From positions 1 through 52,673 of the IMG/VR virus record IMGVR_UViG_3300036715_001331: a DNA stretch of 52,673 bases. One strand, given 5' to 3'. The notes beneath the pieces were generated by a model. The model made no database searches. It was not told the DNA's origin and saw nothing but the letters and a program-made list of their open reading frames with translations. This document shows positions 134 through 34,820 of the stretch, piece by piece. Each line of letters starts with the position of its first letter. Positions within the stretch are counted from its first letter, which is position 1. The translations under genes and the position numbers were made by a program. This stretch comes from a virus. Lineage: Duplodnaviria > Caudoviricetes.

Positions 134-2320
134 TCACGCGAGGCGCTCCACTTCGATCAGCGGGTCCAGAGCCTTCATGCGGTCGATTGTCACCTGGACG
201 TACCGCGGGTCGAGGTCCATGGCTGCGCACCGGCGGTCCAGCTGGTGGCAGGCGACCATGGTGGACCCGGACCCGATGAAGGCGTCGCCGACGAGCTCGC
301 CGGCCCGGCTGCTGTTCATGATCAGGTCGGCCAGGAGGATCACCGGCTTCATGGTGGGGTGGAGGTCGTTCTTGGCGGGTTTGTTCTGGCGCAGGACGGT
401 GGTCCGCGCCGGCCCCTCGGTCAGGGCCTCGATCATGCTGACCAGTTCGCTCTTGCTCATCTTCTGCAAGTCGGCCCTATCTTCGATCACCGTGCTGTTG
501 GTCCGGTCGGTGGTGAAGTAGTGGCCTCCGCCCGGCTTCCAACCGTAGAGGCAATTGTGCGTGATCAGGCCATCGGCGACGTAGTGTCCGTCCTCTTCCA
601 CGTCGAGCGAGTAGACCTGGCAATGGGCCGATTCTTTTCCTGTTTGAGTAATTGTCTTCCACTCGAATCCCTGGCCTTCGGTCGGGACAGGCAGCTGCAT
701 GATCCCTGGAATAAGGTTGACGGCCTTGATGGTTCGGGATGCCTCCCGGCTGAACATCCCGGTTTCCCCTCGTACCAGGATTGGGTTTGCCTCGTCCAGT
801 CTGAAATATCGCAGGATCTCGCTGGCCCCTTGCTTCACGCGGTCCATGCCGATTATCTGGTAGATCTCTTCCACCCCATCGAAGGTCCGCAATTTCTCCG
901 GTGCATTGCTGTACGGATCAATTCTCCACTGAGTCTGCGGAATGCTGAACCGACACGAAAGAGCTTGCTCGAGAACTCGGGCGTGTACCTTATCCCGGGA
1001 GACGGCCAGAATCCAGGCGACGTCTCCGTCCTCATCGGCCAGCCTGCTGGCAAGTCCGAATCCCCGGGTGTTGAATAGTCGGACTTGACCGATCCGCCAT
1101 CGTTCACTTTTCCGCATCAGGTAGATGATCTGACTGTCGGCTGCTCCCTCGTCTAGCTTGATCGTGAAGCGGTGGTCAGCGGTGGCCCTGGTCGTTTTTC
1201 CGTCACAGGTCACGTCCACCATGAGGCCGTCGTATTCTCGGGACGCTATTTTTATCGGTCGTCCCCTCTGGTGAACTATCGCTTGGGTCGAATTGTAGCT
1301 GACCACCACGTCTCCGTCTTTCAGGGTCTCGATTGGCACGTCCTGGGTTTGGGAGAAAGCCCATTGTCTGCCTTTTTCGGTGGCCCTCGGTTCGATCACC
1401 TTTCTGACCAGCGTTCCGGCAGGTTGGCATGGTTCATGCTTCCATTGGTAGTCCCGACGGCCGAGGACGAGGCTGTTCTTGACCCAGATCAGGCACTGCT
1501 TCAGGAGCAGGCCGGATTCCTCGAAGGTGGCCCGGAAGTTGACGCCCTCGCTGTCTGCGTGCCAGACGTACCAAGCTTCGCCTGGTTTGGTGACCTCGAT
1601 CCAGGTGGTGTAGAACTTCTTGAGGAACTCGCGGAAGGCGACATCCCCCATCCGGTCATTCATGATCTTGAGGTGGTCCCTGGTCCCGCCCTCGTAGTCC
1701 ACGTTATACGGGGGGTCGGTGACAACCAGATCGACGGCGGCGCCGTCCAGCAACAGGTCGACGTGGTCGCGGTTGGTGCTGTCCCCGCACATCAGGCGGT
1801 GCGGTCCGACCTGGAACAGCTGGCCTGCCTGGATTTCCGTCTTGACCTCGGTCAGGGGCTTGGGCTCGTACCCGTCCTCGGTGACGTCGGAGATCTTCGG
1901 CGCGAAGTCGAGGAACTTGGCGCCTGGCAGGGCGAGGTCCCCGAACTCGACGTCGAGATCGCCGATGAACTCGAGGACGCTTTCCTCGGTCATGGTGCCG
2001 TACTGGCTGTTGAGGCGCAGGAGCTTGTTTTTGGCTTCTGCTTCGTCTTTGGCTTCGACCCAGGCGACCGGGAACTCTGGCAGGTCTTCCCCTCGTTTCC
2101 TGGCGACCTTGAGGGCCTGGAGCCGGCCGTGTCCGTCCAGACACCGGTTGCGGTCCCCGTCCCTCCAGATGAAGAACGGGAAACTGAAGCCGAATTTCTC
2201 GATGCTGCGGAGGATCTTGTCGGCCTCGTCGGCCGTCCGGATTTTGAGCGTGCCCTGGAAGTCTTCGATCATCTCGATCGGGAGCGTCGCGGCCCCCTCA
2301 CATTCGATTCGGATCGTCAT
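134..2320 (-). CDS. ParB-like N-terminal domain fused to beta-class N6/N4 DNA methyltransferase, intein-containing
   Basis: LDGHGRL ParB/Srx motif; VTDPPY (motif IV); HPTMKP and DAFIGSGST (motif I); start MTIRIE at 2320 overlaps the upstream TGA. Confidence 0.9.
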   Translation of the reverse strand: MTIRIECEGAATLPIEMIEDFQGTLKIRTADEADKILRSIEKFGFSFPFFIWRDGDRNRCLDGHGRLQALKVARKRGEDLPEFPVAWVEAKDEAEAKNKLLRLNSQYGTMTEESVLEFIGDLDVEFGDLALPGAKFLDFAPKISDVTEDGYEPKPLTEVKTEIQAGQLFQVGPHRLMCGDSTNRDHVDLLLDGAAVDLVVTDPPYNVDYEGGTRDHLKIMNDRMGDVAFREFLKKFYTTWIEVTKPGEAWYVWHADSEGVNFRATFEESGLLLKQCLIWVKNSLVLGRRDYQWKHEPCQPAGTLVRKVIEPRATEKGRQWAFSQTQDVPIETLKDGDVVVSYNSTQAIVHQRGRPIKIASREYDGLMVDVTCDGKTTRATADHRFTIKLDEGAADSQIIYLMRKSERWRIGQVRLFNTRGFGLASRLADEDGDVAWILAVSRDKVHARVLEQALSCRFSIPQTQWRIDPYSNAPEKLRTFDGVEEIYQIIGMDRVKQGASEILRYFRLDEANPILVRGETGMFSREASRTIKAVNLIPGIMQLPVPTEGQGFEWKTITQTGKESAHCQVYSLDVEEDGHYVADGLITHNCLYGWKPGGGHYFTTDRTNSTVIEDRADLQKMSKSELVSMIEALTEGPARTTVLRQNKPAKNDLHPTMKPVILLADLIMNSSRAGELVGDAFIGSGSTMVACHQLDRRCAAMDLDPRYVQVTIDRMKALDPLIEVERLA
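554..1429 (-). mobile_element. Intein (292 aa) in the methyltransferase
   Basis: KHEP|CQPAGT N-junction, TADHRF block B, VYSLDVEEDGHYVADGLITHN|C C-junction; removal restores YQWKHEPCLYGWK; DNA is visibly more AT-rich than its flanks. Confidence 0.93.
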
Positions 2321-5363: not shown

Positions 5364-6113
5364 TCAGGCCCTCCTTGATGCCCAGTTCAGTTCCAGTATG
5401 GCGCCACCGCCCTCCCGCAGTCTGTCGGTGATCGCGTCGCCAAGAAAGGCCCGGAACCCGTCGATGTCCATGTTCGTGACCAGAAGCGTCGGCTTCCTGC
5501 GGTTGTACCGTTCGTTCATCAGGTCGAAAAGGTACAGGCGTTCGACTTCGGTTTCAAACTGCCGGCCGAGCTCGTCGATCACCAGCACCCCGACCGAGGC
5601 GTACCGGTCCCGGATCACGCTCTCCGGCTCGGGGCTGTCTTTCCGGTAGCTCTCTTTGATCCTGCCGGTGTAGTCCTTGGCGGTGGTGTACATCCCGTCC
5701 AGCATGGCCTGGTGGCGGTCGTTCAGGATCCCGCAGGCGATCCAGGTTTTGCCTGTGCCTGCGCTTCCTTGGAGCGACATGGACGGGCAGCCGAGTTTTC
5801 CGAGCATTTCGACCCAGACCAGCATTCGGTCCCTGACGTGGGTTTCCTTGGGGCCTTCGGGTTTCCAGCCGGCCAGGGTGGCGGTAGAGAACCGCTCGGG
5901 GATCCCGCTCGAGTCCCGAAGGGCCTTGATGCCGGCGTCCCTCTGTTCCCTGGCCTTTCGCACTTCTTCCTGTTCGAAGAGGTCAGGCCCCTGCCCCTTC
6001 ATCTCCTCGAGGCGCTGGTCGATCATCTCAAGCGTTCTCCCGAGACACCCCGAAACCTCGACCCAGTCCTCGACCCACTTTCCGTCCCGGATGAACCTTC
6101 TCCACACCTTCAT
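5364..6113 (-). CDS. DnaC/IstB-like AAA+ helicase loader
   Basis: GIPERF, Walker A GSAGTGKT, Walker B VLVIDELG, TLLVTN, ITDRL; directly follows the initiator gene. Confidence 0.92.
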   Translation of the reverse strand: MKVWRRFIRDGKWVEDWVEVSGCLGRTLEMIDQRLEEMKGQGPDLFEQEEVRKAREQRDAGIKALRDSSGIPERFSTATLAGWKPEGPKETHVRDRMLVWVEMLGKLGCPSMSLQGSAGTGKTWIACGILNDRHQAMLDGMYTTAKDYTGRIKESYRKDSPEPESVIRDRYASVGVLVIDELGRQFETEVERLYLFDLMNERYNRRKPTLLVTNMDIDGFRAFLGDAITDRLREGGGAILELNWASRRA

Positions 6114-6880
6114 AGCTTGTGCTCCTGTACCGAGGGTTTGCTCGGGTCGAACCTGACGGCCCCGAACCTGTTTTCTCCGGCCTTGGTTATCCGGGTTGGA
6201 GTGCTAGCTTCGTTGAGGTACTTGTCAAACTTGCCTGGTCTGAAGAGCGTTTCGGGCGTGAGGTACTTTTCCCACTCCGTACCCTTCCAGGCCTTGATCC
6301 TGCTGTCGATGACAGCCTTGAAATCATCCAGAGAGTACCCCTCGCGGATGCGCTCTAGCAGCCCGGTTCCCTTCCAGGTTCTGAAGCGCTTTCCAGCCTT
6401 TTCGTTGAGGTATGAAAGAATGCTTTCTGGGGTGATTTCGGCATTACTCTTAAGTGGGGTTTTAGAGTGGGGTTTTTGTTTAACTGTAGGATGTGACGTG
6501 GCGGTCACTTCCGGGGTGACGGCGCCGTCACTTCCGAAAAGGTTTTGATGTGACAGCGCCGTCACTTCCGGAAGTGACGTGGCGGTCACTTCCGGATTGT
6601 CGTTTTCTTCCCACAGAACCCGGTAGATGTTGGTTCGGTTTTGGCCGCGTTGCTGTCGCTCGAGCCACTTCATTTCGATCAGGTGAACCACGGCCCTGCT
6701 GACGGTTTCGGGCGCCAGGCCGGCGTGTTTGGCGATCTCATCCCTGGACGGGTAGGCTTCGTCATTGTGGCCTTGGAACATCGCCAGAACCGTGTAGACC
6801 CGGAGGTCCGCAAAGGTCAGGTCTGGCTCCTGAAGGAGGAGAATCGGGACCACCCCGTGGCGGGGAATTTTGACCCTCAT
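6110..6880 (-). CDS. Phage replication initiator (N-terminal winged HTH, conserved phage C-terminal domain)
   Basis: AYPSRDEIAKHAGLAPETVSRAV HTH; YLNEKAGKRF and YLTPETLFRPGKFDKYLNE C-terminal motifs; internal iterons. Confidence 0.88.
   Translation of the reverse strand: MRVKIPRHGVVPILLLQEPDLTFADLRVYTVLAMFQGHNDEAYPSRDEIAKHAGLAPETVSRAVVHLIEMKWLERQQRGQNRTNIYRVLWEENDNPEVTATSLPEVTALSHQNLFGSDGAVTPEVTATSHPTVKQKPHSKTPLKSNAEITPESILSYLNEKAGKRFRTWKGTGLLERIREGYSLDDFKAVIDSRIKAWKGTEWEKYLTPETLFRPGKFDKYLNEASTPTRITKAGENRFGAVRFDPSKPSVQEHKL
6441..6595. promoter_or_regulatory. Putative replication origin: four palindromic iterons and an adjacent AT-richer tract
   Basis: GTGAC-N6-GTCAC-TTCCG at 6493, 6516, 6550 and 6574, inside the initiator gene as in lambda O. 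Confidence 0.85.
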
Positions 6881-7431
6881 GCCCGTTGGTCTCCGAATCC
6901 AAGATGGTAGTTTTCGCGCTCGACGGCCTGGTCGGATTGGGCTTTGGTAAGTACCCGGCTGGTGGCTCCCGCTCCTGCCCTGATCACCTTGGCCTTGAGG
7001 CCGTCAGTGATTTCGAGCAGTCCCTTGAGCACGATGTCTCGCTCGTGTGGGGTTGGCTCTGGCAGGAGGGCGAGTGCTTTGTTCTCGAAGAGGGCCAGTC
7101 CAAGGGCCTGGGCCACCTGCTGCCGGTCGATGGCTTTCTTCTCCCAAAGGATGCGGATTTCCCGCAGTTGGGCTCCGTTGGGAAGTCTGCGGACCTCGCT
7201 GTTTGGCAAAGGTCTAGCTTTGTCATTTGGCGAGGTCCGGAAGGCCAGGGCGATGGCGTCGGCCACCGGCTGGGGCACCTTCCCGTACACGTAGCTGGCC
7301 AGGTGTTCAACCTCGGCCCTGGTGAATATTTTCCGGATGCCGTTTTGCATTGGGATCCCGGCGTCTTGTGCGTGCCGGCGGATGGTGCTTTCTCCCTTTC
7401 CAAAGAAGCCGGCCAAGTCAGAAACGGTCAT
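6877..7431 (-). CDS. HTH DNA-binding protein (antirepressor/regulator-like)
   Basis: MTVSDLAGFFGKGESTIRRHA HTH; RBS AGGAGGAAACC; preceded by a structured leader. Confidence 0.65.
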   Translation of the reverse strand: MTVSDLAGFFGKGESTIRRHAQDAGIPMQNGIRKIFTRAEVEHLASYVYGKVPQPVADAIALAFRTSPNDKARPLPNSEVRRLPNGAQLREIRILWEKKAIDRQQVAQALGLALFENKALALLPEPTPHERDIVLKGLLEITDGLKAKVIRAGAGATSRVLTKAQSDQAVERENYHLGFGDQRA

Positions 7432-9062: not shown

Positions 9063-9775
9063 TTGCCTTTCCCCTCCTCGAGAATTTTCTTGAAATCTTC
9101 CCGCAGTTGCAGGAATTCGTCGATGTCGGTCTTGAGCAGTCCGCCCTCGGTGATCTGGTCGATCTTGCGTTTCACCCAGGGCGAGAACTCTTTCGTGTCG
9201 AGGTAGCTGGTGGTTCTCCAGACCTCGACCCGGTAGGTGTTCCCGTCGCCCACCGGCTCTTTGCGCTTCACCTTGCCGAGCTCGACCTCCACCCCGCGGG
9301 TGAACCCGAACACGTCGTCTTTGGGGACGAAGTAGGCGGTCTTGACGGCGTAGGTTTCGAGCTCGTCTTCGTGGATCTCGGCCGGCGTCACGATCTGCCC
9401 TGGCGTCTTCTTGGACCAGTACCCGGACCGGTAGGCTGGCGTGCCGTTGATCCAGTTGGCTTCGATCTCGAGGAGCTTCCACCACAGGGCGGTGGCGTTG
9501 ATGCTGCGCTTCCTGAAGTGGATGGTCAGGTCGAGCTCGAGCTCCACCAGGGTGTCGGCGTAGTTCGGCGCCGGCCCGCGGGCTCCGGACGCCCGGTGCT
9601 TCTCGACGGCCTTGTTGTAGAGTCCTGCCTGGCGCTTGATCAGGATCGCCAGCTGCTCGCCGAGGCGGGCGCGGTACTCGTCGCCGACCTGAAGCAGGAG
9701 CAGGCCGTTGCCTTTCGGAATTCCCAGCTTCAGGTTGGTGAACGGGTTGAACGTCGATCTGGCCTTGATTCTCAT
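9059..9775 (-). CDS. NinB/Orf-like recombination protein
   Basis: RKRSINATALWW and TTSYLDTKEFSPWV resemble NinB N- and C-terminal motifs; lies in the recombination module. Confidence 0.6.
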   Translation of the reverse strand: MRIKARSTFNPFTNLKLGIPKGNGLLLLQVGDEYRARLGEQLAILIKRQAGLYNKAVEKHRASGARGPAPNYADTLVELELDLTIHFRKRSINATALWWKLLEIEANWINGTPAYRSGYWSKKTPGQIVTPAEIHEDELETYAVKTAYFVPKDDVFGFTRGVEVELGKVKRKEPVGDGNTYRVEVWRTTSYLDTKEFSPWVKRKIDQITEGGLLKTDIDEFLQLREDFKKILEEGKGK

Positions 9776-10353
9776 GGCTGGACCACCTTGAAGCTGACGA
9801 CCTGGACCCAGGGGTTTTTCTGCCAGCTGCCGGGGCCGTTGATCGACTCCCAAAGCATCACGTAGGCGTCGACCCGGGAGAGCGTCTCCATCTGCTTCTC
9901 GCTCAGGTTCTCCATGGCCCAGGTGTAGACCCCTTCCTGGCGGGCGTCGTCGTCGGTGATGTCCCAGAGACGTTCGATCCTCTCGGGCTCGGTACGCTCG
10001 AGGAGGATCCGGCTTTCTTTTCTCGGCATGAAGATCGACGGCTTCCAGCATCCTTCGTATGCATCCCCGGTGTGGCTGGCCCTGTAAATCGTCGGGGCTC
10101 GCTTGGTGATGTCGTAGGCGTCCAGGACCGGGCAGAAGGTTTCCTTAACCCACAGGCGGTCTCCTGGCGGGCCGAATTTGAAGCTCTGAAGAAGCCAGGA
10201 CCTATTTCCGGGGTCTCGCACGTAGCTGTCGGTCCATCTGCCGTCGAACAGCCCTAAGCCTCCAGGTTTTGCGAGGCGCCTGGTCTGCGTCTTGTGTCCG
10301 GCCAGAATCGCCCGGACCATGGGGCCGGAAAAAAGGATGGGGTGTTCTTTCAC
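9772..10353 (-). CDS. Conserved phage protein (ASCH/PUA-like)
   Basis: PILFSGPMVRAILAGHKTQTRR, GDRLWVKET, WKPSIFMPR and NPWVQVVSF are hallmarks of a widespread phage family. Confidence 0.8.
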   Translation of the reverse strand: MKEHPILFSGPMVRAILAGHKTQTRRLAKPGGLGLFDGRWTDSYVRDPGNRSWLLQSFKFGPPGDRLWVKETFCPVLDAYDITKRAPTIYRASHTGDAYEGCWKPSIFMPRKESRILLERTEPERIERLWDITDDDARQEGVYTWAMENLSEKQMETLSRVDAYVMLWESINGPGSWQKNPWVQVVSFKVVQP

Positions 10354-16406: not shown

Positions 16407-16426
16407 GCGAGGCATCGGTTTTTTGC

Positions 16427-16473
16427 AAAATAAAAACCCCGCCATTGGCCCTTTCCCGGGCTTTTGGCGGGGT
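16427..16473 (-). terminator. Rho-independent terminator ending the late/lysis operon
   Basis: ACCCCGCCA/TGGCGGGGT stem followed by a T-rich tract on the minus strand. Confidence 0.7.
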
Positions 16474-16508
16474 CTGTGTTCTGGCGGTCCGGATGTCGGT
16501 CTTTTGGG

Positions 16509-17078
16509 CTACTTGTGGCCCAGCAGGGACGCCAGGATCCAGAGAACTGCGACCGTCGCTGCGCCTGCGGTGGCAAACGCCCATCGCGCTTGTTTCAGGG
16601 CTCCGATCTCGGTGGCCTGGTCGTCGTCAGTAACCTTCACCAAGTCTTTGTAGGTCGTAAAGTCCTTGCCGGTAGTGTCCAAGGAGGTCGAGGCATTTTT
16701 TAACGAGCTCGATGTCGCCGTCGAGTCCTCCTGAGACTGATCGAGCGTAATCGCCAGATTGCTTGACGAATCGGTCAATTCCGACCCGGACTTCGCTGAG
16801 TTGTCGGCTTGCTTTTCGGCTTGCTTGGATTGCTCGTTCAGCCGTTGCTCGAGCGTCTTCAAGGTCTGCTCGAGCTCGTCCAAGATCGGCGTCGGCTTTT
16901 CGGCCGGCGGCGTCTCGGGCTTCGCGGTCGGCGATGATGGTTCGCTCGAGCTCGGCGACTCTTGGCCCCAGGCTTCCCCTGGCGAAAGCGTCACCAGCCC
17001 AAAGGCCAGCCCCAAAAAAAACCAGGCCCGCCAAGGCCCAAAGAAATACTTTTTCCATCGGGATTCCCTTTTTTCCAT
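16509..17078 (-). CDS. Spanin-like protein: signal/TM, coiled coil, C-terminal TM
   Basis: Hydrophobic N-terminus ending EAWG, S/P linker, heptads, C-terminal hydrophobic helix; last gene of the lysis cassette. Confidence 0.6.
   Translation of the reverse strand: MEKRESRWKKYFFGPWRAWFFLGLAFGLVTLSPGEAWGQESPSSSEPSSPTAKPETPPAEKPTPILDELEQTLKTLEQRLNEQSKQAEKQADNSAKSGSELTDSSSNLAITLDQSQEDSTATSSSLKNASTSLDTTGKDFTTYKDLVKVTDDDQATEIGALKQARWAFATAGAATVAVLWILASLLGHK
16627..17058 (-). CDS. i-spanin-like protein nested in an alternative frame
   Basis: MEKVFLWALAGLVFFGAGLWAG TM followed by an A/R/D/E coiled coil; fully inside 16509-17078. Confidence 0.6.
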   Translation of the reverse strand: MEKVFLWALAGLVFFGAGLWAGDAFARGSLGPRVAELERTIIADREARDAAGRKADADLGRARADLEDARATAERAIQASRKASRQLSEVRVGIDRFVKQSGDYARSVSGGLDGDIELVKKCLDLLGHYRQGLYDLQRLGEGY

Positions 17079-17084
17079 GACGGG

Positions 17085-17402
17085 TCATTCTCCTTCGGTC
17101 CACTCCGGCAGGTCAACCGTCTTTCCCGCGAGTTCGTGGGCGCTGTCGGGGAGGAACTGGATCCGGCCGTCTGTGACGAAGGAATGGCAGAGGGTTTCCT
17201 GGGGCTTTCCTCTGGGCCAGTCGGCGCTCGGTGGCAGGGCCGGGGTGTAGAGCAGGAGGGATGGGGTAAACGTTGGGAGGTCTGGGTTTCCGTTGTAGGT
17301 CCAGGTTGGGTGGTCCCCAGGAACGACCCAGACGGTGTGGTGGTACTTGCACCCCGGGCACATGAACATCATCAGGCCGTCGCGGATTTCTCGTAGCTTC
17401 AC
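17085..17402 (-). CDS. DUF6527-like Cys/His protein, paralog 1
   Basis: CPGC..HH, WTYNG..PTFTPS, CHSFVTDGRIQFLPDSAHELAGKT. Confidence 0.7.
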   Translation of the reverse strand: MKLREIRDGLMMFMCPGCKYHHTVWVVPGDHPTWTYNGNPDLPTFTPSLLLYTPALPPSADWPRGKPQETLCHSFVTDGRIQFLPDSAHELAGKTVDLPEWTEGE

Positions 17403-17632
17403 TGCTTTGCCTCGCTGGTCGCCGGGTCAAGCTCGGGCCGGTAGTGCTTCGATCGGGTGTAGTTGTCAGCCGAGTTGGATGCCTGGTAGGAGGCGGCGGC
17501 GGCCACCAGGGCCGTCAGAATGGCCCCCAGGGCCTCGACCAGGTGTTCCGGTGCCCGCCATGCCACAACCGCAAAGGCGGCCGCCAGGAACAGGTAAACG
17601 GCCCAGAAGGCCGTGCTCTTTTTTGTCTTCAT
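17399..17632 (-). CDS. Putative holin (2 TM)
   Basis: 77 aa, two hydrophobic helices, charged C-terminus, in the lysis cassette. Confidence 0.7.
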   Translation of the reverse strand: MKTKKSTAFWAVYLFLAAAFAVVAWRAPEHLVEALGAILTALVAAAASYQASNSADNYTRSKHYRPELDPATSEAKQ

Positions 17633-18123
17633 GCGGCGACAACCTGGAATACCCGAATACCGCCGGTCCCGTCGCTCTGAAGGGGGTAGGGGTCACCCTC
17701 GGCGACGGTCACCGATCCACCCTTGATCGAGTCCCACTTGACCGGCTTCTTATTCCCGATCACCCAGTGAACGAATCCGGTCCTGGGGTTCTTCCAGGAG
17801 ACGATCACCCAAAACCCCGGACCCGAATACTTGTCATGGTCGGTCTGGTCGAACTTGCCCAGATACTTCAGGTTCAGGCCCAAGAAGTCGACGAACCCCT
17901 GGGGGTTGAGGAGCAGGGCTTCATTCGGGTCATCCATGTCGTCGTCGTCGTTGACATCACCCGAAATCAGCCCTTTGTCGACAGCCAGGTGCATCGTGGC
18001 GCCGAACTCGTGGACCCGCCAGGGTTTTCCCATCCCAAATTCGCGCCAGGCCGCGATCGCATCGGCCAGGCAGGCATAGTGCTGGATCCATCCAGCCAGC
18101 AGGTTGTCGTTCTGAAAAACCAT
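17629..18123 (-). CDS. Candidate endolysin, papain-like (C39/DUF261-like)
   Basis: Q...IQHYAC, FVHWVIG, WDS..GGSVTV.EG...IRVF; coupled to the holin. Confidence 0.5.
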   Translation of the reverse strand: MVFQNDNLLAGWIQHYACLADAIAAWREFGMGKPWRVHEFGATMHLAVDKGLISGDVNDDDDMDDPNEALLLNPQGFVDFLGLNLKYLGKFDQTDHDKYSGPGFWVIVSWKNPRTGFVHWVIGNKKPVKWDSIKGGSVTVAEGDPYPLQSDGTGGIRVFQVVAA

Positions 18124-18134
18124 GAAATCCTCCC

Positions 18135-18950
18135 TTACGCTTGCATTGGTAGACCGGTCAGGCTGGCCGGAATGTCATCGATCTGCCGCTGGGCCACCTT
18201 ATCCAGAATGGTCCGGATCTCGACGTTGTCGGTAGTCTGTTTGAACTCCTCGACGAACGCCATCAGCTTCCGCTCTTCCTCTTGGGCGATCTCGTGGAAC
18301 CGCTCGAGGACTTCGGCCGTCAGGCCCCGGATCTGGTCCTCGAGACGCTTGAAGGCCGGGAGCTTGTTCCCGGGCCAGGCCAGCATCTTCTCGTACCGGA
18401 TCCTGTAGATGGCCACCTTGTCGTTCAGGTAGTCCGGGTTCAGGTACCGCTCCCCGTTGACCTGGCGGTAGACCTCGTCCAGGATGTGGTTGAAGTTGGC
18501 GACGTCCCGGAGAACGGTCGCGTACCGCTCCCAGGCGGCGCTCACCTGCCGCCGGTCCGTGCAGACGCCAGCCAGGATCGGGATGAACAGGTCCTCGACG
18601 GTGGAGTTGATCGCGGCCGTCTGCCTGGCCCAGGTCGTGTTGATCGAGTCAAATCGGTGCCGGGAAACGATCTGGACCATTTGGATCGGCTTGATGTCGA
18701 GCTCGATGCACCGTCGCTCGGGGCCTACGTAGACCCCCTTCTCACCGGCCTTCCGGTCTTCGGCGCTGGAAACCTCAACCTTCCCGGCCTTGGATTGCCA
18801 CCGGATCCCCGGGGCCTTGCCAATCAGAATCAGGATGAAGTACATGATGCCGAGCAAGCCGGCGACAATCGATGGTGCGATGACCCCCCAGGGGACGTCG
18901 GTGTGGATGTCGCGGATCATGTCGGGCGCGGTGGTGATAAGGGTCGTCAT
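18135..18950 (-). CDS. Single-TM membrane protein with large helical soluble domain
   Basis: WGVIAPSIVAGLLGIMYFILILIG; start MTTLITT overlaps the lipase stop. Confidence 0.7.
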   Translation of the reverse strand: MTTLITTAPDMIRDIHTDVPWGVIAPSIVAGLLGIMYFILILIGKAPGIRWQSKAGKVEVSSAEDRKAGEKGVYVGPERRCIELDIKPIQMVQIVSRHRFDSINTTWARQTAAINSTVEDLFIPILAGVCTDRRQVSAAWERYATVLRDVANFNHILDEVYRQVNGERYLNPDYLNDKVAIYRIRYEKMLAWPGNKLPAFKRLEDQIRGLTAEVLERFHEIAQEEERKLMAFVEEFKQTTDNVEIRTILDKVAQRQIDDIPASLTGLPMQA

Positions 18951-19639
18951 TCGGCGGACTCCAAGGCTTTGATGTAGGCGTCTCCATTGTGGACACTCGG
19001 ATGGAAGCCGAACCGGTAGTGCCCGACGTACTGAACTTTCCCGACGTGGCGGTAACCGGCCAGGGCCGGAACGGAGTGGGGGACCGGGTCGCCCCACTGG
19101 CGGATCTGGGTGTAGGAGCAGGGGACCGGGGCTTGGGCCAGGGCCTGCGTGAACTCGTGGGCCGCCCGGCCTTCGTAAAGCCTGGGGCCGCCGAAGCCGA
19201 CCCCGTGGATTTCCATGGCCTTGAAATTGTGCAGGGCGTCTCGGGTGGTCAGAACGGAATGAGCCTCGCCCTGGGAAAACCCGGGGACCCGGATAAGGCT
19301 GGGCCGGTAAATGTCGATCCAGTTCATGACCTCGGCCCGGAAGGTTCTGTACTCCCGAAGGAACCCGTCATGGACCAGGTATTCCTCGGTGCCGACCGAA
19401 AGTTCCATCGGCCAGGCCATCAGGTTCTGCCACCAGTCGGCCGAAAGGAAGAACCTGTTTTTCAGGCTGAAAACGGCTCCCAGGGTGCAATCGAACCCGA
19501 TCACCATTTCCTGAGGCATTACCGAAAGCGTCGAGACGTAGGCGGTCACGTGCCGCGTCTCGTCCTTGATTTCCTTCACCACCCGGAAGCCCTGGGGGGC
19601 CTGCCCCTGGGTGGACCGGAACGCTTCGCTGTACTTCAA
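18947..19639 (-). CDS. Class-3 lipase-like alpha/beta hydrolase
   Basis: VHDGF, GFSQG nucleophile elbow, FGGPR, DPVP, GYRHVG, late His (HNGDAY); TTGA-coupled start. Confidence 0.85.
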   Translation of the reverse strand: MKYSEAFRSTQGQAPQGFRVVKEIKDETRHVTAYVSTLSVMPQEMVIGFDCTLGAVFSLKNRFFLSADWWQNLMAWPMELSVGTEEYLVHDGFLREYRTFRAEVMNWIDIYRPSLIRVPGFSQGEAHSVLTTRDALHNFKAMEIHGVGFGGPRLYEGRAAHEFTQALAQAPVPCSYTQIRQWGDPVPHSVPALAGYRHVGKVQYVGHYRFGFHPSVHNGDAYIKALESAE

Positions 19640-20382
19640 TTCGCGGCCTCCCAGTTGTCGTAGATCTTCGCGGCCATCGCCGCGCTGGTGGCCTGCCGGA
19701 TGTTGTTCTTGATAGCCCCAATGTTCGCCGAGGTGCTTTGAACGAAGGCAAACAGGGCCTTCACGTACCCCTGAAAATCGGCCAGGGCCTTGAACGTCAC
19801 GGTATTGTCCGAGGCGTCGGGCCACTGAAGCGGGAAGTCGACCGGTATCCCGGCGGCCAGGGCCACGTTGACCCCGGTGGCGTTGACCACCTGGTCCTGG
19901 GTGCCCGAGAACCTCATGCTCTCGAAAACGAACCCATTGGCCAGAATCTCGCCCATCTTCGAGTCGATCATGGCGAAAAGCTGGGACTGAAGAACGCCCT
20001 GGTCGATCAGGCCGGCGTAGGCCTTTTCGCTCGGCGTCATCCCTCGGATTCCGCCAGCGCCACTATTCAGGCTGGCATCATAGATCTCGCCGGAGGGAAC
20101 CTTGACCTGACCTGCATCGATCAATTCCTTTAGAGTCATCTCGGCGAGAGTCAAGCCGACGAGTTTGAAGCCGACAGGAACAGGAACAATCTTATTAACT
20201 ACCAGGGTGGCGTAGGGGATGGTATTCCATGTTTCATCCCAAAGGGCGCGAAGATCGCCCCTTTTTGGAACAACATGATCAGGAACTTTTTCAAAGCCCT
20301 CTGCATCAGGAAAGGGGCCGCAAAACACCCCATCAATGACGTCGTTGGTTTTATGAACGTAAACCAGGTTTTCATACGTCAT
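19636..20382 (-). CDS. Tail fibre assembly chaperone-like protein (DUF4376-like C-terminus)
   Basis: Directly after the fibre; WPDASDNTV followed by a helical C-terminus. Confidence 0.6.
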   Translation of the reverse strand: MTYENLVYVHKTNDVIDGVFCGPFPDAEGFEKVPDHVVPKRGDLRALWDETWNTIPYATLVVNKIVPVPVGFKLVGLTLAEMTLKELIDAGQVKVPSGEIYDASLNSGAGGIRGMTPSEKAYAGLIDQGVLQSQLFAMIDSKMGEILANGFVFESMRFSGTQDQVVNATGVNVALAAGIPVDFPLQWPDASDNTVTFKALADFQGYVKALFAFVQSTSANIGAIKNNIRQATSAAMAAKIYDNWEAAN

Positions 20383-21830
20383 GCCGTCCTCCTCCATTTT
20401 GTTGCCAAAGTATAAGAAGTCGTCGTTTCTGGTCCGGAACGGACACTACCAGACACCCCATCTGAAATAGGTCCCGTGATAGACACGATAGGGAGGTTTG
20501 CACTGCCAGCAACACTACCCGATGGGCCTGATCCAGAAAAACCTTGAAAAGTGACGTTTGTGGCGTGAAAGTGCCCCTCAAAAGAATCGGCAAACGTATA
20601 AAATCCGTCAAACAAAAGGGCCCTTCCTGACGTATATCCAGCCCCTGGCGTCGTTGTGGTCACTCCCGTGATAGCACCGCCAGAGTTCGTTGTTGCCGTG
20701 CCAACCCACTGCGTAGTACAAGTGCCCACAAGGGTGAGAGGAATCGTTGTACTCGCTGGATACCCAGACCCACCACTGACAACGTTAAAAGATGGAACCC
20801 CAGCCGAGACTGAGACTGTGATTTGTGCCGGAACCCCCGATACTTTCGTGTTTCCAGGAGCACTTTGCCCGATTCTCCTGGATGTGCCAAGTTCTTCCCA
20901 GTTTACGTTTGCCCAGGTGGTTCCCGGGAACAAAGACGCAGGGGTAGCATCGTTATTTCCCTGGATGTAGACCGAGAGAATCGGTGGCGTAGAAGAGCGA
21001 ATCCAGGGTTGCCACGTGCCGGCGACCAAGGCCGAGTACCAGATGTCGGCCGTCGCGCCAACTTTGAACGCGGTGATCAGGCCATTCGATCCGTCGCCCT
21101 GGTAGTCGTAGTACCACGTGCCGGTGGCGGTGCCTTCCGGGGTGGTGGTCGCTCCGGTCAGGAAGGTGAACATCCCGGGCGAGGCATTGGCCTTCACCTG
21201 GGCCTGGGAGTCACCGGTCAATCCGGTAGCGGCAAACATCGCGGCCGATGCCACGGGGGCCATCTTAAGGTTCGTGATCGGGGAGGATCCGCTGTTGTAC
21301 GTGAAGGTGGCAACCAGCACGGAATCGGCCGGGATCGACCCGGTGGTGACGCCGAACACCACGGTGGGGGTGATTTCGTAGTTGTACGATCCGGAGGCCT
21401 TGGCCCGGGTTCTTGAGGGCCCGTTCACTTCGGAGTACGAGGCGTAAAGCTTGTACGCCGTGCCGCCTCCGGAAGCCCCCAGGGTGGTGACGTTGACGGT
21501 CTGGGCGGCCCAGGCCAGCGGAAGGTTCGCGGTGAACGTCGTAGTGGGGGGGGGCATGGCCCACGAGGCCCCGGGGATGGTCACCAAAAACGGCAAAACC
21601 GCCAAGGCGGCGGAAAGGTCGATCTGGTTATTCGGGAGGGTGGCGTTGATCGCCGGGATCGTCTGGCGGATGAGCGTCGGTACACCGGGCAGGCGGCCAA
21701 CAACAGCCAACAGCGCGGTTCCAAGCTGGTCATACAGGTGGTAGAAGTCCCGCGCGAGATCCTGGGAATAGTACCGGTCTCCGGCCGCCAGCGGGTAGCC
21801 TGAACTGAATTGGAAATTGTGATGGTTCAT
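20379..21830 (-). CDS. Tail fibre / receptor-binding protein
   Basis: G/S/T-rich beta repeats (VVSGGSGY, TTPGAGYTS); PASLFPGTTW; DSFEGHFH...GPET fibre-tip motifs. Confidence 0.8.
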   Translation of the reverse strand: MNHHNFQFSSGYPLAAGDRYYSQDLARDFYHLYDQLGTALLAVVGRLPGVPTLIRQTIPAINATLPNNQIDLSAALAVLPFLVTIPGASWAMPPPTTTFTANLPLAWAAQTVNVTTLGASGGGTAYKLYASYSEVNGPSRTRAKASGSYNYEITPTVVFGVTTGSIPADSVLVATFTYNSGSSPITNLKMAPVASAAMFAATGLTGDSQAQVKANASPGMFTFLTGATTTPEGTATGTWYYDYQGDGSNGLITAFKVGATADIWYSALVAGTWQPWIRSSTPPILSVYIQGNNDATPASLFPGTTWANVNWEELGTSRRIGQSAPGNTKVSGVPAQITVSVSAGVPSFNVVSGGSGYPASTTIPLTLVGTCTTQWVGTATTNSGGAITGVTTTTPGAGYTSGRALLFDGFYTFADSFEGHFHATNVTFQGFSGSGPSGSVAGSANLPIVSITGPISDGVSGSVRSGPETTTSYTLATKWRRTA

Positions 21831-34170: not shown

Positions 34171-34820
34171 CAGGCGTCCCACTTTCCCCAGGGCTCACCC
34201 GCGGGGCCTTCATGCTTTGCCATTTCCTCGATGGCCTTGGCGTCGCCGTCTCGCACCAGCTTGACGATGGCCTCTTTCACCATCTTGGTGTTCTCGGTCC
34301 TCTTGAGCTTGCGCATCAGGGTGTTGTAGGCGACGTGGAGCGCCGGCCGGGGTGGGATCCGGATCAGGATGCCCCGGCCGAACCCGTTCTCGATCGTCCG
34401 GCCGTATTCGTGGACCTGGAACAGGTCGGCCAGCTTGATCGGTTTTCTTCCGGCTTCGATGTCTTCCTGGGTCTGGTGGTGGAACCCTTCGGCGGGTCGG
34501 ACCCAGTATTTCCGGCCGTTGGCGTCCCTGGTGATCCGCATCATGTTGGCGTAGGTCATCTTCTCTTCGTCGTCGTCACCCCACCCGTAGAGGGGGGTTT
34601 CGGGCTGGGCCTGGCCGAGCGCCTCTTTCCTCGAGATCGTGGTGTCTCTCAACGGCTCGAGGCCGAGCTCGTCGTTCTTGATGCCGTCGTGGAAGATCTC
34701 GATCACCTCGATCGCTCTCTTTTTGGCGCTGGTTTCGATGGCGTCGAGGACGATCTTGGGGAGTCTCTTGATCCGGCTTTTTTTGGCCTCGAAGTTTTTT
34801 GAGAACCGGGCTTTGATCAT
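34170..34820 (-). CDS. Neck / tail completion protein
   Basis: PLRDTTISRK, VHEYG, IPPRP motifs. Confidence 0.7.
   Translation of the reverse strand: MIKARFSKNFEAKKSRIKRLPKIVLDAIETSAKKRAIEVIEIFHDGIKNDELGLEPLRDTTISRKEALGQAQPETPLYGWGDDDEEKMTYANMMRITRDANGRKYWVRPAEGFHHQTQEDIEAGRKPIKLADLFQVHEYGRTIENGFGRGILIRIPPRPALHVAYNTLMRKLKRTENTKMVKEAIVKLVRDGDAKAIEEMAKHEGPAGEPWGKWDA

What the first reader, a model, noticed from the sequence alone, without database searches (positions are those of the whole stretch)
16509..19639. Unusual seven-gene lysis cassette, a candidate undescribed envelope-lysis system
Seen: a tightly packed, mostly coupled run after the fibre genes: class-3 lipase, single-TM protein, papain-like Cys/His protein, 2-TM holin, DUF6527-like protein, nested spanin-like pair, then a terminator. 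No recognisable lysozyme, amidase or lipoprotein o-spanin. Known: standard diderm lysis uses holin, endolysin and spanins, and mycobacteriophages add the esterase LysB. Inference: a lysis strategy adapted to an atypical outer membrane, such as a glycolipid-based spirochaete sheath.
Basis: partly seen in the sequence, partly recalled or inferred. Interest (0 to 1): 0.72.

Follow-up and report, generated by a model that had tools for sequence, protein, structure and literature searches.

The report
Phage lysis cassette with unusual parts
This is the cell-bursting gene set of an uncultured phage that follows the usual plan but seems to use an uncharacterised cysteine protease family (DUF261) as its wall-cutting enzyme and an odd overlapping gene pair in place of ordinary spanins.

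Summary
The seven ORFs are real. They are translationally coupled, end at a strong terminator, and close the late operon of a complete 52.7-kb phage genome. No conventional lysin is detectable anywhere in that genome.

- **g3, likely endolysin:** the "papain-like" protein is a divergent member of Pfam DUF261, so far a Borrelia-plasmid family of unknown function. It has a papain-like predicted fold and invariant Cys and His.
- **Context of g3 relatives:** four other phage lineages place a g3 relative between small membrane proteins and the same kind of nested gene pair.
- **Slot replacement:** a syntenic relative (G010) has a standard Amidase_2 lysin in exactly that slot.
- **Nested pair:** a signal + coiled-coil + C-terminal-anchor protein contains an embedded N-terminal-TM ORF. 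This recurs in five lineages, always in the same relative frame (combined shuffle p about 1e-5). No clear lipobox was seen, so the pair fails the o-spanin and u-spanin definitions.
- **Accessory genes:** the esterase (Lipase_3 here, GDSL-like or lipase-like in two relatives) and DUF6527 recur but are optional.
- **g2:** an orphan with no relatives.
- **Host:** the spirochaete-sheath idea has no support, and the host is unknown.

Verdict: a new variant of the holin–endolysin–spanin scheme, built from parts that have not been described.

The parts
18947..19639 (-). g1: class-3 lipase-like esterase, 230 aa, no signal peptide. Probably an accessory lipid esterase released at lysis; a tail or host-surface role is not excluded.
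   Evidence: Pfam Lipase_3, E 4.2e-7, 30.4 bits over the cut-off of 22. PHROG 21992 esterase/lipase, E 5e-6. In a weak alignment to feruloyl esterase A, GFSQG aligns with the GHSLG nucleophile elbow, and GDPVP and GYRHVG align with the Asp and His regions (E 0.22).
18135..18950 (-). g2: orphan membrane protein, 271 aa, with one N-terminal TM helix (residues 19-47). Role unknown.
   Evidence: No Pfam, PHROG or NCBIfam family. The only database match is itself. No usable ESM Atlas lead; the Atlas model has pLDDT 0.52. Strong coding signal.
17629..18123 (-). g3: divergent DUF261-family papain-like cysteine peptidase, 164 aa, cytoplasmic. Proposed endolysin.
   Evidence: AF2 model with pLDDT 77. 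VIA-align top hits are papain-fold cysteine peptidases, Z up to 7.2. Q4, C18 and H119 are invariant and D131 nearly so across 47 family members. 28 of 47 members match DUF261. hhalign against the Borrelia lp28-2 DUF261 protein gives 98.9% probability. The lysis-slot context repeats in 4 other lineages, and Amidase_2 fills that slot in G010.
17399..17632 (-). g4: holin-like protein, 77 aa, with two TM helices and a charged C-terminal tail.
   Evidence: TM segments at 6-27 and 30-49. No family hit. Small 1-2-TM proteins occupy the same position in L002, G013, L007 and G010.
17085..17402 (-). g5: DUF6527 zinc-ribbon protein, 105 aa. The family includes BubE, a Ser/His peptidase. Accessory gene, role in lysis unknown.
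   Evidence: Pfam DUF6527, 46.6 bits over the cut-off of 23.6. PHROG 3362, E 2.4e-32. In Pseudomonas phage Haddon a homologue lies between the endolysin and the i-/o-spanin genes. BubE biochemistry was read in passages of bioRxiv 10.1101/2024.11.21.623953.
16627..17088 (-). g6: nested ORF, 153 aa, with an N-terminal TM helix and a coiled coil. Topology is i-spanin-like.
   Evidence: ATGA overlap with the g5 stop. Weak Rz-like spanin PHROG match, E 7e-4. An equivalent nested ORF in the same relative frame occurs in 5 lineages; synonymous-codon shuffles reach its length in 149 of 5000 for the window, and the Fisher combined p over 5 loci is 1.1e-5.
16509..17078 (-). g7: 189-aa protein with a Sec-type signal, a Ser/Pro-rich linker, a coiled coil and a C-terminal TM helix. 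It contains no cysteine. Topology is u-spanin-like without the lipid anchor.
   Evidence: Hydrophobic segments at 18-32 and 167-188, and no Cys. GC3 of 0.74, typical of the genome. The same architecture occurs in L002, L005, G013 and G010; L007 has a lipobox-bearing version.
16426..16475 (-). Intrinsic terminator that closes the late operon.
   Evidence: Hairpin of -29.5 kcal/mol followed by a U run, z -5.9. A sigma-70-like promoter for the next gene follows at 16405-16378.

Best explanation
The region is the lysis module at the end of the late operon of a complete, uncultured contractile-tail-type phage. It follows the standard three-step order but uses non-standard proteins.

1. **Membrane step (inferred).** g4, a 77-aa two-TM holin-like protein, permeabilises the cytoplasmic membrane at the end of infection.
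2. **Wall step (inferred from fold, conserved residues and gene position).** This releases g3, a cytoplasmic 164-aa cysteine peptidase of the DUF261 superfamily. It has a papain-like fold, a probable Cys18-His119-Asp131 catalytic set and a probable Ca-binding DxNxDGD loop. g3 acts as the endolysin by cutting peptide stems or cross-links of the wall.
3. **Envelope step (inferred).** The overlapping pair g6 and g7 completes disruption of the envelope, in the way spanins do. g6 has an N-terminal TM helix and a coiled coil. g7 has a signal peptide, a Ser/Pro linker, a coiled coil and a C-terminal TM helix. Neither has a lipoprotein anchor.

Three further genes:
- g1, a class-3 lipase without an export signal, is most simply an accessory esterase that attacks envelope lipids once it is released. 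That is analogous to mycobacteriophage LysB in function, not homologous to it.
- g5 (DUF6527) is a recurrent passenger of lysis cassettes with an unknown target.
- g2 is an orphan membrane protein.

Shown here: the genes, their families and predicted fold, their conservation, and their positions. Inferred: every activity.
For: **1. Complete genome with no other lysin.**
- The window is the whole record. It has a 127-bp terminal repeat and CheckV completeness of 100.
- 81 ORFs scanned against Pfam gave 22 families, none muralytic.
- The single PHROG 'endolysin' label (phrog_938) is a 110-position match inside the MuF-type head gene.

**2. g3 fold and residues.**
- AF2 gave pLDDT 77.4 and pTM 0.78.
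- Of the 50 VIA-align rows, almost all are papain-fold cysteine peptidases or deubiquitinases by title. They include staphopain (Z 7.2), PCAT1 C39 (Z 6.9) and the pseudomurein endoisopeptidase PeiR (Z 6.8).
- Q4, C18, H119, S137 and G143 are invariant, and D131 and R157 are at least 90% conserved, across 47 members that fall to 23% identity.

**3. Family.**
- The profile search found 60 representatives at E <= 1e-3.
- 28 of 47 members match DUF261.
- 6 of 10 members scanned individually pass its cut-off.
- hhalign against the B. burgdorferi lp28-2 DUF261 protein gave 98.9%, E 3.7e-17, with the Cys, His, Asp and Ser columns aligned.

**4. Position.**
- In L002, L005, G013 and L007 a g3 relative follows the fibre genes. 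It is flanked by small TM proteins and by the signal/coil/C-anchor protein.
- In G010, whose baseplate and fibre genes are syntenic at 33-44% identity, the order is: C-terminal-TM protein, Amidase_2, two-TM protein, nested pair. A canonical endolysin therefore sits in g3's slot.

**5. Nested pair.**
- All five lineages have the embedded ORF in the same relative frame.
- Synonymous-codon shuffles reached the observed open length in 149/5000 (window), 14/5000 (L005), 117/5000 (L002), 300/5000 (G013) and 48/5000 (G010).
- The Fisher combined p is 1.1e-5.
- The third frame shows no excess.

**6. Esterases.**
- L007 has a lipase-like gene between its holin-like and u-spanin-like genes. It matches the same PHROG 21992 at E 0.008, and BLASTP to g1 gives E 0.02 across the GxSQG elbow.
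- G013 has a GDSL-like lipoprotein in the g1 position (E 4.7e-6, below the cut-off).

**7. DUF6527.** In Pseudomonas phage Haddon it lies between the endolysin and the spanin genes.
Against: - No activity has been tested.
- g3 itself matches no Pfam or PHROG model. Its link to DUF261 is transitive.
- Foldseek found no PDB match at E <= 0.001, and the VIA Z values (7.2 or lower) are in the range the tool calls middling.
- A papain fold is equally compatible with a protease or a deubiquitinase.
- No family member carries a wall-binding domain. The three long profile hits are spurious repeat proteins.
- G013, which has a g3 relative, also encodes a secreted 156-aa SLT-domain protein elsewhere, next to an SSB-like gene. 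g3 relatives therefore need not be the only muralytic enzyme.
- Only 2 of 23 records searched carry a g3 relative (the 22 virus records behind my loci, one of which (G023) came from a g3-family search rather than from the terminase scan, plus the MAG G018). Most of the 22 virus records also lack Amidase_2, lysozyme and SLT, so a complementary distribution is not established.
- g6 has atypical codon composition, and the alternative frame of a signal peptide is hydrophobic partly by construction (shuffle means 1.6-2.6).
- g1 and the G013 esterase lie directly after fibre genes, and the G013 enzyme matches esterase domains of tail-fibre PHROGs. A tail or host-surface role is therefore possible.
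- Neither g6 nor g7 has an evident outer-membrane anchor, so the spanin analogy lacks its defining link.
Confidence: 0.6

Rival explanations
1. g3 is not a lysin. It is a papain-like protease or deconjugating enzyme with another job, such as removing host ubiquitin-like tags from tail proteins together with the DUF6527 peptidase g5, or processing a phage or host protein. The true muralytic enzyme is an unrecognised protein elsewhere in the genome.
For: VIA-align hits include deubiquitinases and UFM1/ATG4-type proteases at Z 4.8-5.8. The DUF6527 family member BubE cleaves peptide and isopeptide bonds of a ubiquitin-like conjugation system (passages read). Both genes lie just downstream of the fibre genes. 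The genome has a second DUF6527 copy in the structural module at 34817-35149. G013 carries a separate SLT protein.
Against: g3 relatives sit between holin-like and spanin-like genes in 5 lineages, and a bona fide Amidase_2 occupies that slot in syntenic G010. No other lysin candidate exists in a complete genome. Four of the five g3-bearing cassettes (L002, L005, G013, L007) show no DUF6527 in the ORFs inspected, so g3 does not depend on g5.
Confidence: 0.15
2. Only one gene of the nested pair is real. g7, the frame with normal codon usage, is a lipobox-less unimolecular-spanin-like protein. g6 is an open alternative frame with no product.
For: g6 has GC3 of 0.49 against 0.7-0.9 for real genes, and a codon score near zero. 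Its only family hit is weak (E 7e-4). In the shuffles the alternative frame is open for 57-86 codons on average, and its N-terminus is hydrophobic partly by construction. L007 has no nested ORF.
Against: The nested ORF has the same relative frame, the same N-terminal-TM-plus-helix design and a start at the beginning of the long gene in 5 of 5 lipobox-less lineages, whose locus GC ranges from 0.50 to 0.62. The combined p is 1.1e-5. The g6 ATG overlaps the g5 stop, just as the i-spanin start follows DUF6527 in phage Haddon. Overprinted genes normally show atypical codon usage (general knowledge).
Confidence: 0.2
3. g1, and perhaps g2, belongs to the tail-fibre and host-recognition module rather than to lysis. 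It would be an esterase that modifies or removes a surface lipid or acyl group at adsorption, or a conversion enzyme.
For: g1 is translationally coupled to the DUF4376 fibre-associated gene. The G013 esterase in the same position is a lipoprotein whose best PHROG hits are esterase domains of tail-fibre proteins. L002, L005 and G010 have no esterase, so it is dispensable for the lysis scheme.
Against: g1 has no signal peptide and no fibre-like domain. In L007 the lipase-like gene lies inside the cassette, between the holin-like and u-spanin-like genes.
Confidence: 0.35
4. One reading: the cassette is an adaptation to an atypical glycolipid outer sheath such as that of spirochaetes.
For: DUF261 is annotated only on Borrelia and Borreliella plasmids in the plasmid collection (31 and 39 records). 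No lipoprotein o-spanin is present. A lipase is present.
Against: The phage has 62% GC. It has Shine-Dalgarno motifs before 51 of 80 genes and a sigma-70-like promoter. The runs that hold pieces of it are microbial-mat and sediment metagenomes. The g3 family has 60 representative clusters in metagenomes, and relatives range from 45% to 62% GC. The same nested pair works alongside an ordinary Amidase_2 in G010.
Confidence: 0.04

Closest known systems
Cysteine-peptidase endolysins of the papain-like fold: CHAP and NlpC/P60 domains, and the pseudomurein endoisopeptidases PeiW/PeiP/PeiR of methanogen viruses
   Same: A small enzyme with a papain-like fold and a Cys-His-(Asp/Asn) set. It is encoded beside a holin and has no export signal. 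PeiR is among the best structural matches (Z 6.8, rmsd 3.6 over 125 residues).
   Different: There is no sequence match to any of these families. g3 belongs to DUF261, for which no function is in print: searches for 'DUF261' and 'PF03196' as whole words returned 0 papers. It has an invariant Gln 14 residues before the Cys, and most members carry a DxNxDGD loop.
Pfam DUF261 (PF03196), proteins of Borrelia and Borreliella linear plasmids such as lp28-2 and lp54
   Same: Homologous: hhalign gives 98.9%, and 28 of 47 g3-family members hit the model. On lp28-2 the gene is flanked by an N-terminal-TM coiled-coil protein and a lipoprotein, upstream of phage-like structural and terminase genes.
   Different: g3 itself scores below detection against the Pfam model. 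The Borrelia proteins carry an extra N-terminal segment of about 65 residues and lack the DxNxDGD loop.
Spanins: two-component Rz/Rz1 in embedded architecture, and unimolecular T1 gp11 (definitions from passages of Kongari et al. 2018, PMC6139136)
   Same: They are the last genes of the cassette. One gene is embedded out of frame in the other. g6 has i-spanin topology. g7 has the C-terminal TM helix of a u-spanin, and the L007 homologue-by-position has a proper LTGC lipobox plus a C-terminal TM helix.
   Different: g7 has no cysteine, so it cannot be lipoylated. Here the i-spanin-like gene is the embedded one, and the longer gene carries both a signal peptide and a C-terminal anchor. No outer-membrane attachment is evident.
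Mycobacteriophage LysB (recalled from general knowledge, not from a call)
   Same: A lipid esterase without an export signal, encoded in a lysis cassette and thought to act on the outer lipid layer after the wall is cut.
   Different: LysB is a cutinase-type esterase of phages of mycolic-acid bacteria. g1 is a class-3 lipase in a phage with a contractile-tail-type baseplate and an unknown host. No homology was found or claimed.
BubE / DUF6527 serine peptidases of bacterial ubiquitin-like (Bub) operons (bioRxiv 10.1101/2024.11.21.623953, passages read)
   Same: g5 passes the Pfam cut-off for DUF6527. It has the CPGC zinc-ribbon motif and the conserved PS and CH motifs seen in other phage copies.
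   Different: g5 is a stand-alone phage gene with no E1, E2 or Ubl partners in the window. The fourth zinc-binding Cys seen in g5b and in phage Haddon is Ser in g5. Its substrate is unknown.

Membership tests
Lipase_3 (PF01764), for g1 | Profile match above the curated cut-off | tested here: met
   30.4 bits against a cut-off of 22, E 4.2e-7, profile positions 12-137 of 140.
Lipase_3 (PF01764), for g1 | GxSxG nucleophile elbow plus Asp and His of the catalytic triad | tested here: inconclusive
   GFSQG aligns with GHSLG of feruloyl esterase A. GDPVP and GYRHVG align with its Asp and His regions. The alignment itself is weak (E 0.22), and which residues are catalytic in that enzyme is recalled, not from a call.
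DUF261 (PF03196), for g3 | Direct profile match above the curated cut-off (26.1 bits) | tested here: not met
   g3 matches no Pfam family at E <= 1.
DUF261 (PF03196), for g3 | Homology to bona fide members through profiles | tested here: met
   The A2 profile finds P0020 at E 7e-17. P0020 matches DUF261 at 45.3 bits over the full length. 28 of 47 members match. hhalign of A3 against the lp28-2 DUF261 protein gives 98.9% probability.
Papain-like cysteine peptidases (clan CA type), for g3 | Fold: N-terminal helix bearing the Cys, packed against a beta-sheet bearing the His | tested here: met
   AF2 pLDDT 77. The VIA-align rows are dominated by papain-fold enzymes, Z 4.2-7.2, covering residues 1-164. 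Z below 8 is middling by the tool's own note. Foldseek E values are 0.16 or higher.
Papain-like cysteine peptidases (clan CA type), for g3 | Conserved Gln, Cys, His and Asn/Asp in that order | tested here: met
   Q4, C18 and H119 are invariant and D131 is at least 90% conserved across 47 sequences. Their spatial proximity in the model was not checked.
Endolysin (functional class), for g3 | Cleaves cell-wall polymer | not testable with these tools
   Only positional evidence is available: Amidase_2 fills the same slot in G010.
Holin (functional class), for g4 | Small protein with one or more TM helices and a charged C-terminus, next to the lysin | tested here: met
   77 aa, TM helices at 6-27 and 30-49, polar charged tail. 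There is no family match, and hole formation is not testable here.
i-spanin, for g6 | N-terminal TM helix followed by a periplasmic helical or coiled-coil domain, encoded with an o-spanin partner | tested here: inconclusive
   TM helix at 13-30. Rz-like PHROG match at E 7e-4 over residues 10-94. The partner is not an o-spanin.
o-spanin, for g7 | Lipoprotein signal with a lipobox Cys | tested here: not met
   g7 has no cysteine. The consensus [LVI][ASTVI][GAS]C is taken from PMC6139136.
u-spanin, for g7 | N-terminal lipoylation signal and a C-terminal TM domain | tested here: not met
   The C-terminal TM helix at 167-188 is present, but there is no lipobox. The L007 counterpart meets both features: LTGC and a TM helix at 139-159.
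DUF6527 (PF20137), for g5 | Profile match above the cut-off | tested here: met
   46.6 bits against a cut-off of 23.6. PHROG 3362, E 2.4e-32.
DUF6527 / BubE peptidase, for g5 | Ser-His catalytic dyad and C4 zinc finger | tested here: inconclusive
   The CPGC, PS and CH motifs are present, but g5 has only three Cys. No alignment to BubE was made.

The most novel reading that the evidence does not exclude
Two things here could be new in kind.

1. DUF261 is a widespread but unrecognised class of phage endolysin, a Ca-dependent cysteine peptidase. That would also give a function to the Borrelia lp28-2 and lp54 DUF261 genes and point to a lysis cassette on those prophage-like plasmids.
2. The conserved nested pair is a fourth spanin architecture that works without any lipoprotein. 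It consists of a tail-anchored, signal-bearing coiled-coil protein and an overprinted N-anchored partner. Outer-layer disruption would then be achieved by two inner-membrane-anchored proteins, or by a Gly-rich C-terminal segment that inserts into the outer layer.

A further possibility is that lysis-cassette DUF6527 proteins cut the covalent protein tethers between the wall and the outer membrane.
Probability: 0.3. Interest if true: 0.75.

Novelty: new variant of a known kind. Interest (0 to 1): 0.6.

Why it matters
- **A function for DUF261.** Endolysins are catalogued by a limited set of catalytic families. A family that is absent from lysin annotation, yet sits in the lysin slot of several uncultured phage lineages, would fill part of the 'no lysin found' gap in viral metagenomes. 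It would also supply a testable function for a long-standing domain of unknown function on Borrelia plasmids.
- **A spanin gap.** Kongari et al. found no spanin in 91 of 677 phages of Gram-negative hosts (PMC6139136, Table 1, seen). A conserved lipobox-less nested pair is a concrete candidate for one of the missing mechanisms. It is also a clean example of a conserved overprinted gene.
- **Accessory enzymes.** Esterases and DUF6527 recur inside lysis cassettes. This suggests accessory envelope-cutting activities beyond the three classical steps.

Tried and rejected
- **phrog_938 'endolysin'.** This was a false lead. The model has 2185 positions, and only positions 1505-1614 match, inside the MuF-type head gene at 41843-42163.
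- **Relatives of g3 in virus and genome collections.** Scans of viral contigs with g3 and with P0016 found none. A scan of genome contigs with A2 found none. Alignments A3 and A4 were too diverse for the pattern scan.
- **Terminase as a single query.** It found nothing in viral contigs. Only the alignment A5 worked.
- **Host assignment failed.**
  - The window has no tRNA genes.
  - The best cultured-phage terminase hits are only 23% identical.
  - The one genome-contig relative is a 49.9-kb contig of a Clostridia MAG at 39% identity, which may be a binned phage.
- **Gln after the predicted signal cleavage site.** In the four counterparts where I assigned a cleavage site, Gln follows it (assigned by eye; L005, and G010 where I assigned none, also carry a possible non-canonical lipobox Cys). 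This fits the Bacteroidetes Q-rule (PMC5837995 passages; PMC10367356 passage). The window's frequent Shine-Dalgarno motifs and its sigma-70-like promoter argue against a classical Bacteroidia host (that such hosts rarely use these signals is recalled). I therefore draw no host conclusion.
- **Complex prediction of the g6 and g7 soluble parts.** No verdict (score 0.31 against a mark of 0.34).
- **Sequencing runs.** No RNA holder was listed. Four DNA runs hold fragments as short contigs, and the variant table did not cover the g6/g7 overlap, so no codon-position test of selection was possible.
- **Sequence conservation in cassette neighbours.** Alignments of the C-terminal-TM proteins and of the long proteins from different lineages show shared architecture only, with no conserved sequence.
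- **Other searches without leads.**
  - NCBIfam gave nothing.
  - The ESM Atlas gave no lead for g2.
  - BFVD gave one unnamed viral protein of the same fold (E 1.3e-3, TM 0.67/0.77).
  - Long 'hits' of the g3 profile are cadherin-like or DUF7402 repeat proteins and are spurious.
- **Literature.** No paper holds 'DUF261' or 'PF03196' as a whole word. No paper holds 'class 3 lipase' together with 'bacteriophage' and 'endolysin'. The cp32/endolysin/Borrelia search gave nothing relevant. Supplementary files were not consulted.
- **G004.** This complete syntenic relative has no comparable cassette after its fibre gene, and its lysin was not identified.

Full report
**What the window is.** The 52,673-base window is a whole virus record. 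It has a 127-base direct terminal repeat and an estimated completeness of 100. GC is about 62%. A codon-usage gene call gave 80 genes, all on the minus strand, covering about 96% of the sequence. Pfam and PHROG scans of 81 ORFs show three modules: a lambda-gpA-type terminase, portal and MuF-like head module; a P2-type baseplate (Phage_base_V, Phage_GPD, Tail_P2_I); and replication and recombination genes. The finding lies at the very end of the late operon, directly after the fibre gene (20379-21830) and a DUF4376 fibre-associated gene (19636-20397).

**The observation.** All seven ORFs are present and tightly coupled.
- The g1 TTG start overlaps the upstream stop.
- g1/g2, g3/g4 and g5/g6 share ATGA overlaps, and g4/g5 shares a GTGA overlap.
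- g3 is preceded by AGGGAGG.
- Six of the seven have clear coding signal in their own frame. g6 does not (GC3 0.49, score near zero).
- The operon ends in a hairpin of -29.5 kcal/mol followed by a U run (z -5.9). A sigma-70-like promoter for the next gene follows it.
g6 has only a weak Rz-like spanin PHROG match.
- The statement that no lysozyme, amidase or lipoprotein o-spanin is recognisable also holds. None of the 22 Pfam families found in the whole genome is muralytic. Six-frame searches for Amidase_2, Phage_lysozyme and SLT are negative for the window. g7 has no cysteine.
- One PHROG hit labelled 'endolysin' is a partial match to a 2185-position model, inside the head-morphogenesis gene.

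**The papain-like protein (g3).**
- g3 has only ten close relatives (63-83% identity) among 5.8 billion proteins.
- A profile of these found 60 representative clusters at E <= 1e-3 in 1.8 billion. Almost all are stand-alone proteins of 140-180 residues.
- Across 47 members that fall to 23% identity, Q4, C18, H119, S137 and G143 are invariant, and D131 and R157 are nearly so. Most members also carry an ISGDLNxDGDxDD loop. That loop weakly resembles dockerin and FG-GAP calcium loops; calcium binding is my inference.
- An AlphaFold model built from 11 sequences has pLDDT 77 and pTM 0.78.
- Foldseek found nothing at E <= 0.001 in the PDB, but its weak list consists of papain-fold enzymes and type VI amidase effectors.
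- The exhaustive VIA-align search returned almost only papain-fold cysteine peptidases and deubiquitinases. They include staphopain B (Z 7.2), the C39 domain of PCAT1 (Z 6.9) and the pseudomurein endoisopeptidase PeiR (Z 6.8). These Z values are middling by the tool's own calibration. The consistency of the list and the conserved Gln-Cys-His-Asp order are what carry the argument.
- g3 itself hits no Pfam model, but 28 of 47 family members hit DUF261 (best E 1.3e-15), and 6 of 10 members scanned singly pass its cut-off.
- The family profile aligns with the DUF261 protein of B. burgdorferi plasmid lp28-2 at 98.9% probability, with the Cys, His, Asp and Ser columns in register.
- No paper in the searchable library contains 'DUF261' or 'PF03196' as a word.

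**Gene context elsewhere.** The table lists the loci examined.

| Locus | Origin | Order after the fibre genes |
|---|---|---|
| L002 | metagenome contig | 131-aa protein, multi-TM protein, 130-aa C-terminal-TM protein, g3 homologue, 75-aa two-TM protein, long protein with nested ORF |
| L005 (L003 and L004 share an exact 40-base anchor with it and match g3 at the same identity; taken as the same lineage) | metagenome contig | 111-aa membrane protein, 120-aa C-terminal-TM protein, g3 homologue, long protein with nested ORF |
| G013 | closest large terminase relative, 50% identity | 85-aa protein, GDSL-like lipoprotein, 138-aa C-terminal-TM protein, DUF261-like protein, two small TM proteins, long protein with nested ORF |
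| L007 / G023 | viral contig | DUF261-like protein, 77-aa holin-like protein, lipase-like protein, protein with an LTGC lipobox and a C-terminal TM helix (the textbook unimolecular-spanin design); no nested ORF |
| G010 | 53.3 kb, terminal repeats, GC 0.59, baseplate and fibre syntenic at 33-44% identity | C-terminal-TM protein of about 100 aa, Amidase_2 (E 3e-18), two-TM protein of about 68 aa, HNH-like insertion, 179-aa long protein with a 152-aa nested ORF |

- By tblastn, only g3 of the window's cassette is conserved in L002-L005.
- G010 is the decisive comparison. A canonical endolysin occupies the slot that g3 occupies in the window, within an otherwise identical architecture. This is the main reason I read g3 as the endolysin.
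- On lp28-2 of B. burgdorferi the DUF261 gene is flanked by an N-terminal-TM coiled-coil protein and a lipoprotein, upstream of phage-like structural and terminase genes. That fits, but I did not pursue it.

**The nested pair.**
- In the window, g7 has genome-typical codon composition. g6 looks overprinted (GC by codon position 0.73/0.49/0.49), and G010 shows the same pattern (0.76/0.52/0.48).
- To test whether the embedded frame is open by chance, I shuffled synonymous codons of the long gene, keeping its protein and codon usage, and counted how often the alternative frame stayed open as long as observed.

| Locus | Shuffles reaching the observed open length |
|---|---|
| window | 149 of 5000 |
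| L005 | 14 of 5000 |
| L002 | 117 of 5000 |
| G013 | 300 of 5000 |
| G010 | 48 of 5000 |

- In every locus the nested ORF is in the same relative frame. The Fisher combined p is 1.1e-5, and the third frame shows no excess.
- The N-terminal hydrophobic helix of the nested ORF is partly a by-product of lying over a signal peptide, but it is stronger than in most shuffles (combined p 7e-4 over four loci).
- The g6 start overlaps the stop of the DUF6527 gene. In the cultured Pseudomonas phage Haddon, a DUF6527 gene lies between the endolysin and a normal i-spanin/o-spanin pair, with the i-spanin start in the same place.
- I therefore regard both frames as probably coding and the pair as the spanin equivalent of this phage group.
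- It fails the definitions of o-spanin and u-spanin, which require a lipobox (PMC6139136, passages). Three of the five long proteins (window, L002, G013) have no candidate lipoylation cysteine; L005 (LALC) and G010 (ILAC) have a non-canonical lipobox-like motif within the hydrophobic region that I could not exclude. How the outer layer is engaged is unknown.
- In two lineages the C-terminal segment is Gly-rich rather than strongly hydrophobic.

**Accessory genes.**
- **g1.** It has the GxSxG elbow, and its Asp and His regions align with those of a class-3 esterase of known structure, though weakly. It has no export signal. An esterase occurs in 3 of the 6 cassettes examined: Lipase_3 in the window, a lipase-like gene in L007, and a GDSL-like gene in G013. 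Only in L007 does it lie unambiguously inside the lysis genes. The G013 enzyme resembles esterase domains of tail fibres. A LysB-like accessory role is the simplest reading, but a tail or host-surface role remains a serious rival.
- **g5.** It belongs to DUF6527, whose member BubE was reported to be a Ser/His peptidase that cleaves peptide and isopeptide bonds (bioRxiv 10.1101/2024.11.21.623953, passages). A second copy lies in the structural module at 34817-35149. Its role in lysis, if any, is unknown.
- **g2.** It has no relative and no confident structure.

**Host.** I could not name one.
- There are no tRNA genes and no close cultured relative.
- The only genome-contig relative is a possibly mis-binned MAG contig.
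- Fragments identical or close to the stretch occur in four coded DNA runs labelled microbial mat or sediment metagenome.
- The Gln after each predicted signal cleavage site recalls the Bacteroidetes Q-rule. Against that, Shine-Dalgarno motifs precede 51 of 80 genes, compared with 17% of random positions, and a TTGACA/TATAAT-like promoter is present.
- Nothing points to a spirochaete.

**Weak points.**
- All activities are inferred.
- The fold matches are moderate.
- g3 relatives carry no wall-binding domains.
- G013 also has a secreted SLT protein, encoded next to an SSB-like gene, which could be a second lysin.
- Only 2 of 23 records searched (22 virus records plus the MAG G018; L002's record was not held) carry a g3 relative. 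Only 5 of the 22 virus records have Amidase_2 or SLT, and none has Phage_lysozyme. The lysins of most of this phage group remain unidentified, so a clean either/or distribution cannot be claimed.

**Verdict.** It is a variant of the standard scheme, not a new strategy, and the spirochaete inference is unsupported. The points of real interest are a candidate function for DUF261 and a conserved, lipobox-less, overprinted spanin-like pair.

Noticed in passing
window 34817-35149 (-): A second DUF6527 paralogue (110 aa, with CPGC, PS and CCH motifs) lies inside the structural module, between tail and head genes. The phage therefore carries two copies of this peptidase-like family.
   Followed up: partly
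window 134-2320 (-): A 728-aa ParB-like/N6_N4 DNA methyltransferase matches its families in two stretches, residues 7-324 and 636-720. The middle part gives a weak Intein_splicing hit (E 5.9e-4, below the cut-off). This may be an intein or another insertion in the methylase.
   Followed up: no
window 41843-42163 (-): The only PHROG 'endolysin' label in the genome (phrog_938) comes from a 2185-position multi-domain model that matches only about 110 positions within the MuF-type head gene. It is an annotation trap.
   Followed up: yes
L009 (Pseudomonas phage Haddon) 2780-4432: In a cultured phage the order is endolysin, DUF6527, i-spanin (N-terminal TM), overlapped o-spanin (LAGC lipobox). In the record these last three are annotated only as hypothetical proteins.
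   Followed up: partly
L010 (B. burgdorferi B31 lp28-2) 5420-7255: The DUF261 gene is flanked by a 128-aa N-terminal-TM coiled-coil protein, a 124-aa coiled-coil protein and a BBA14-family lipoprotein, upstream of a beta-helix protein and a PBSX-type terminase. This looks like a candidate lysis cassette of a prophage-like plasmid.
   Followed up: partly
L099 (G010) 9087-9779: An HNH or homing-endonuclease-like gene, plus a small ribbon-helix-like ORF, is inserted between the holin-like gene and the nested pair of the related phage.
   Followed up: no
L098 (G013) 2388-2858: A 156-aa SLT-domain protein with a signal peptide is encoded next to an SSB-like gene in the early region of a phage that also has a DUF261-like gene in its lysis cassette.
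   Followed up: partly
window 16962-16970; L002, L005 and L094 counterparts: In the four long spanin-like proteins where I assigned a signal cleavage site by eye (AWG/Q, SQA/Q, ATA/Q, AFS/Q; none assigned in G010), Gln follows it, as in the Bacteroidetes Q-rule. The window's translation and promoter signals look unlike classical Bacteroidia.
   Followed up: partly
L002 9612-10004, L005 9629-9991, L094 5260-5676, L099 10714-11016: A 100-138-aa protein with a single C-terminal TM helix lies immediately upstream of the lysin gene in four lineages, with no detectable sequence similarity between them. The window has the unrelated N-terminal-TM orphan g2 in that position.
   Followed up: partly
window, whole: All 80 called genes are on one strand. 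The genome also encodes an InPase-family protein (PF18823, E 3e-36) and a DnaJ-domain protein.
   Followed up: no
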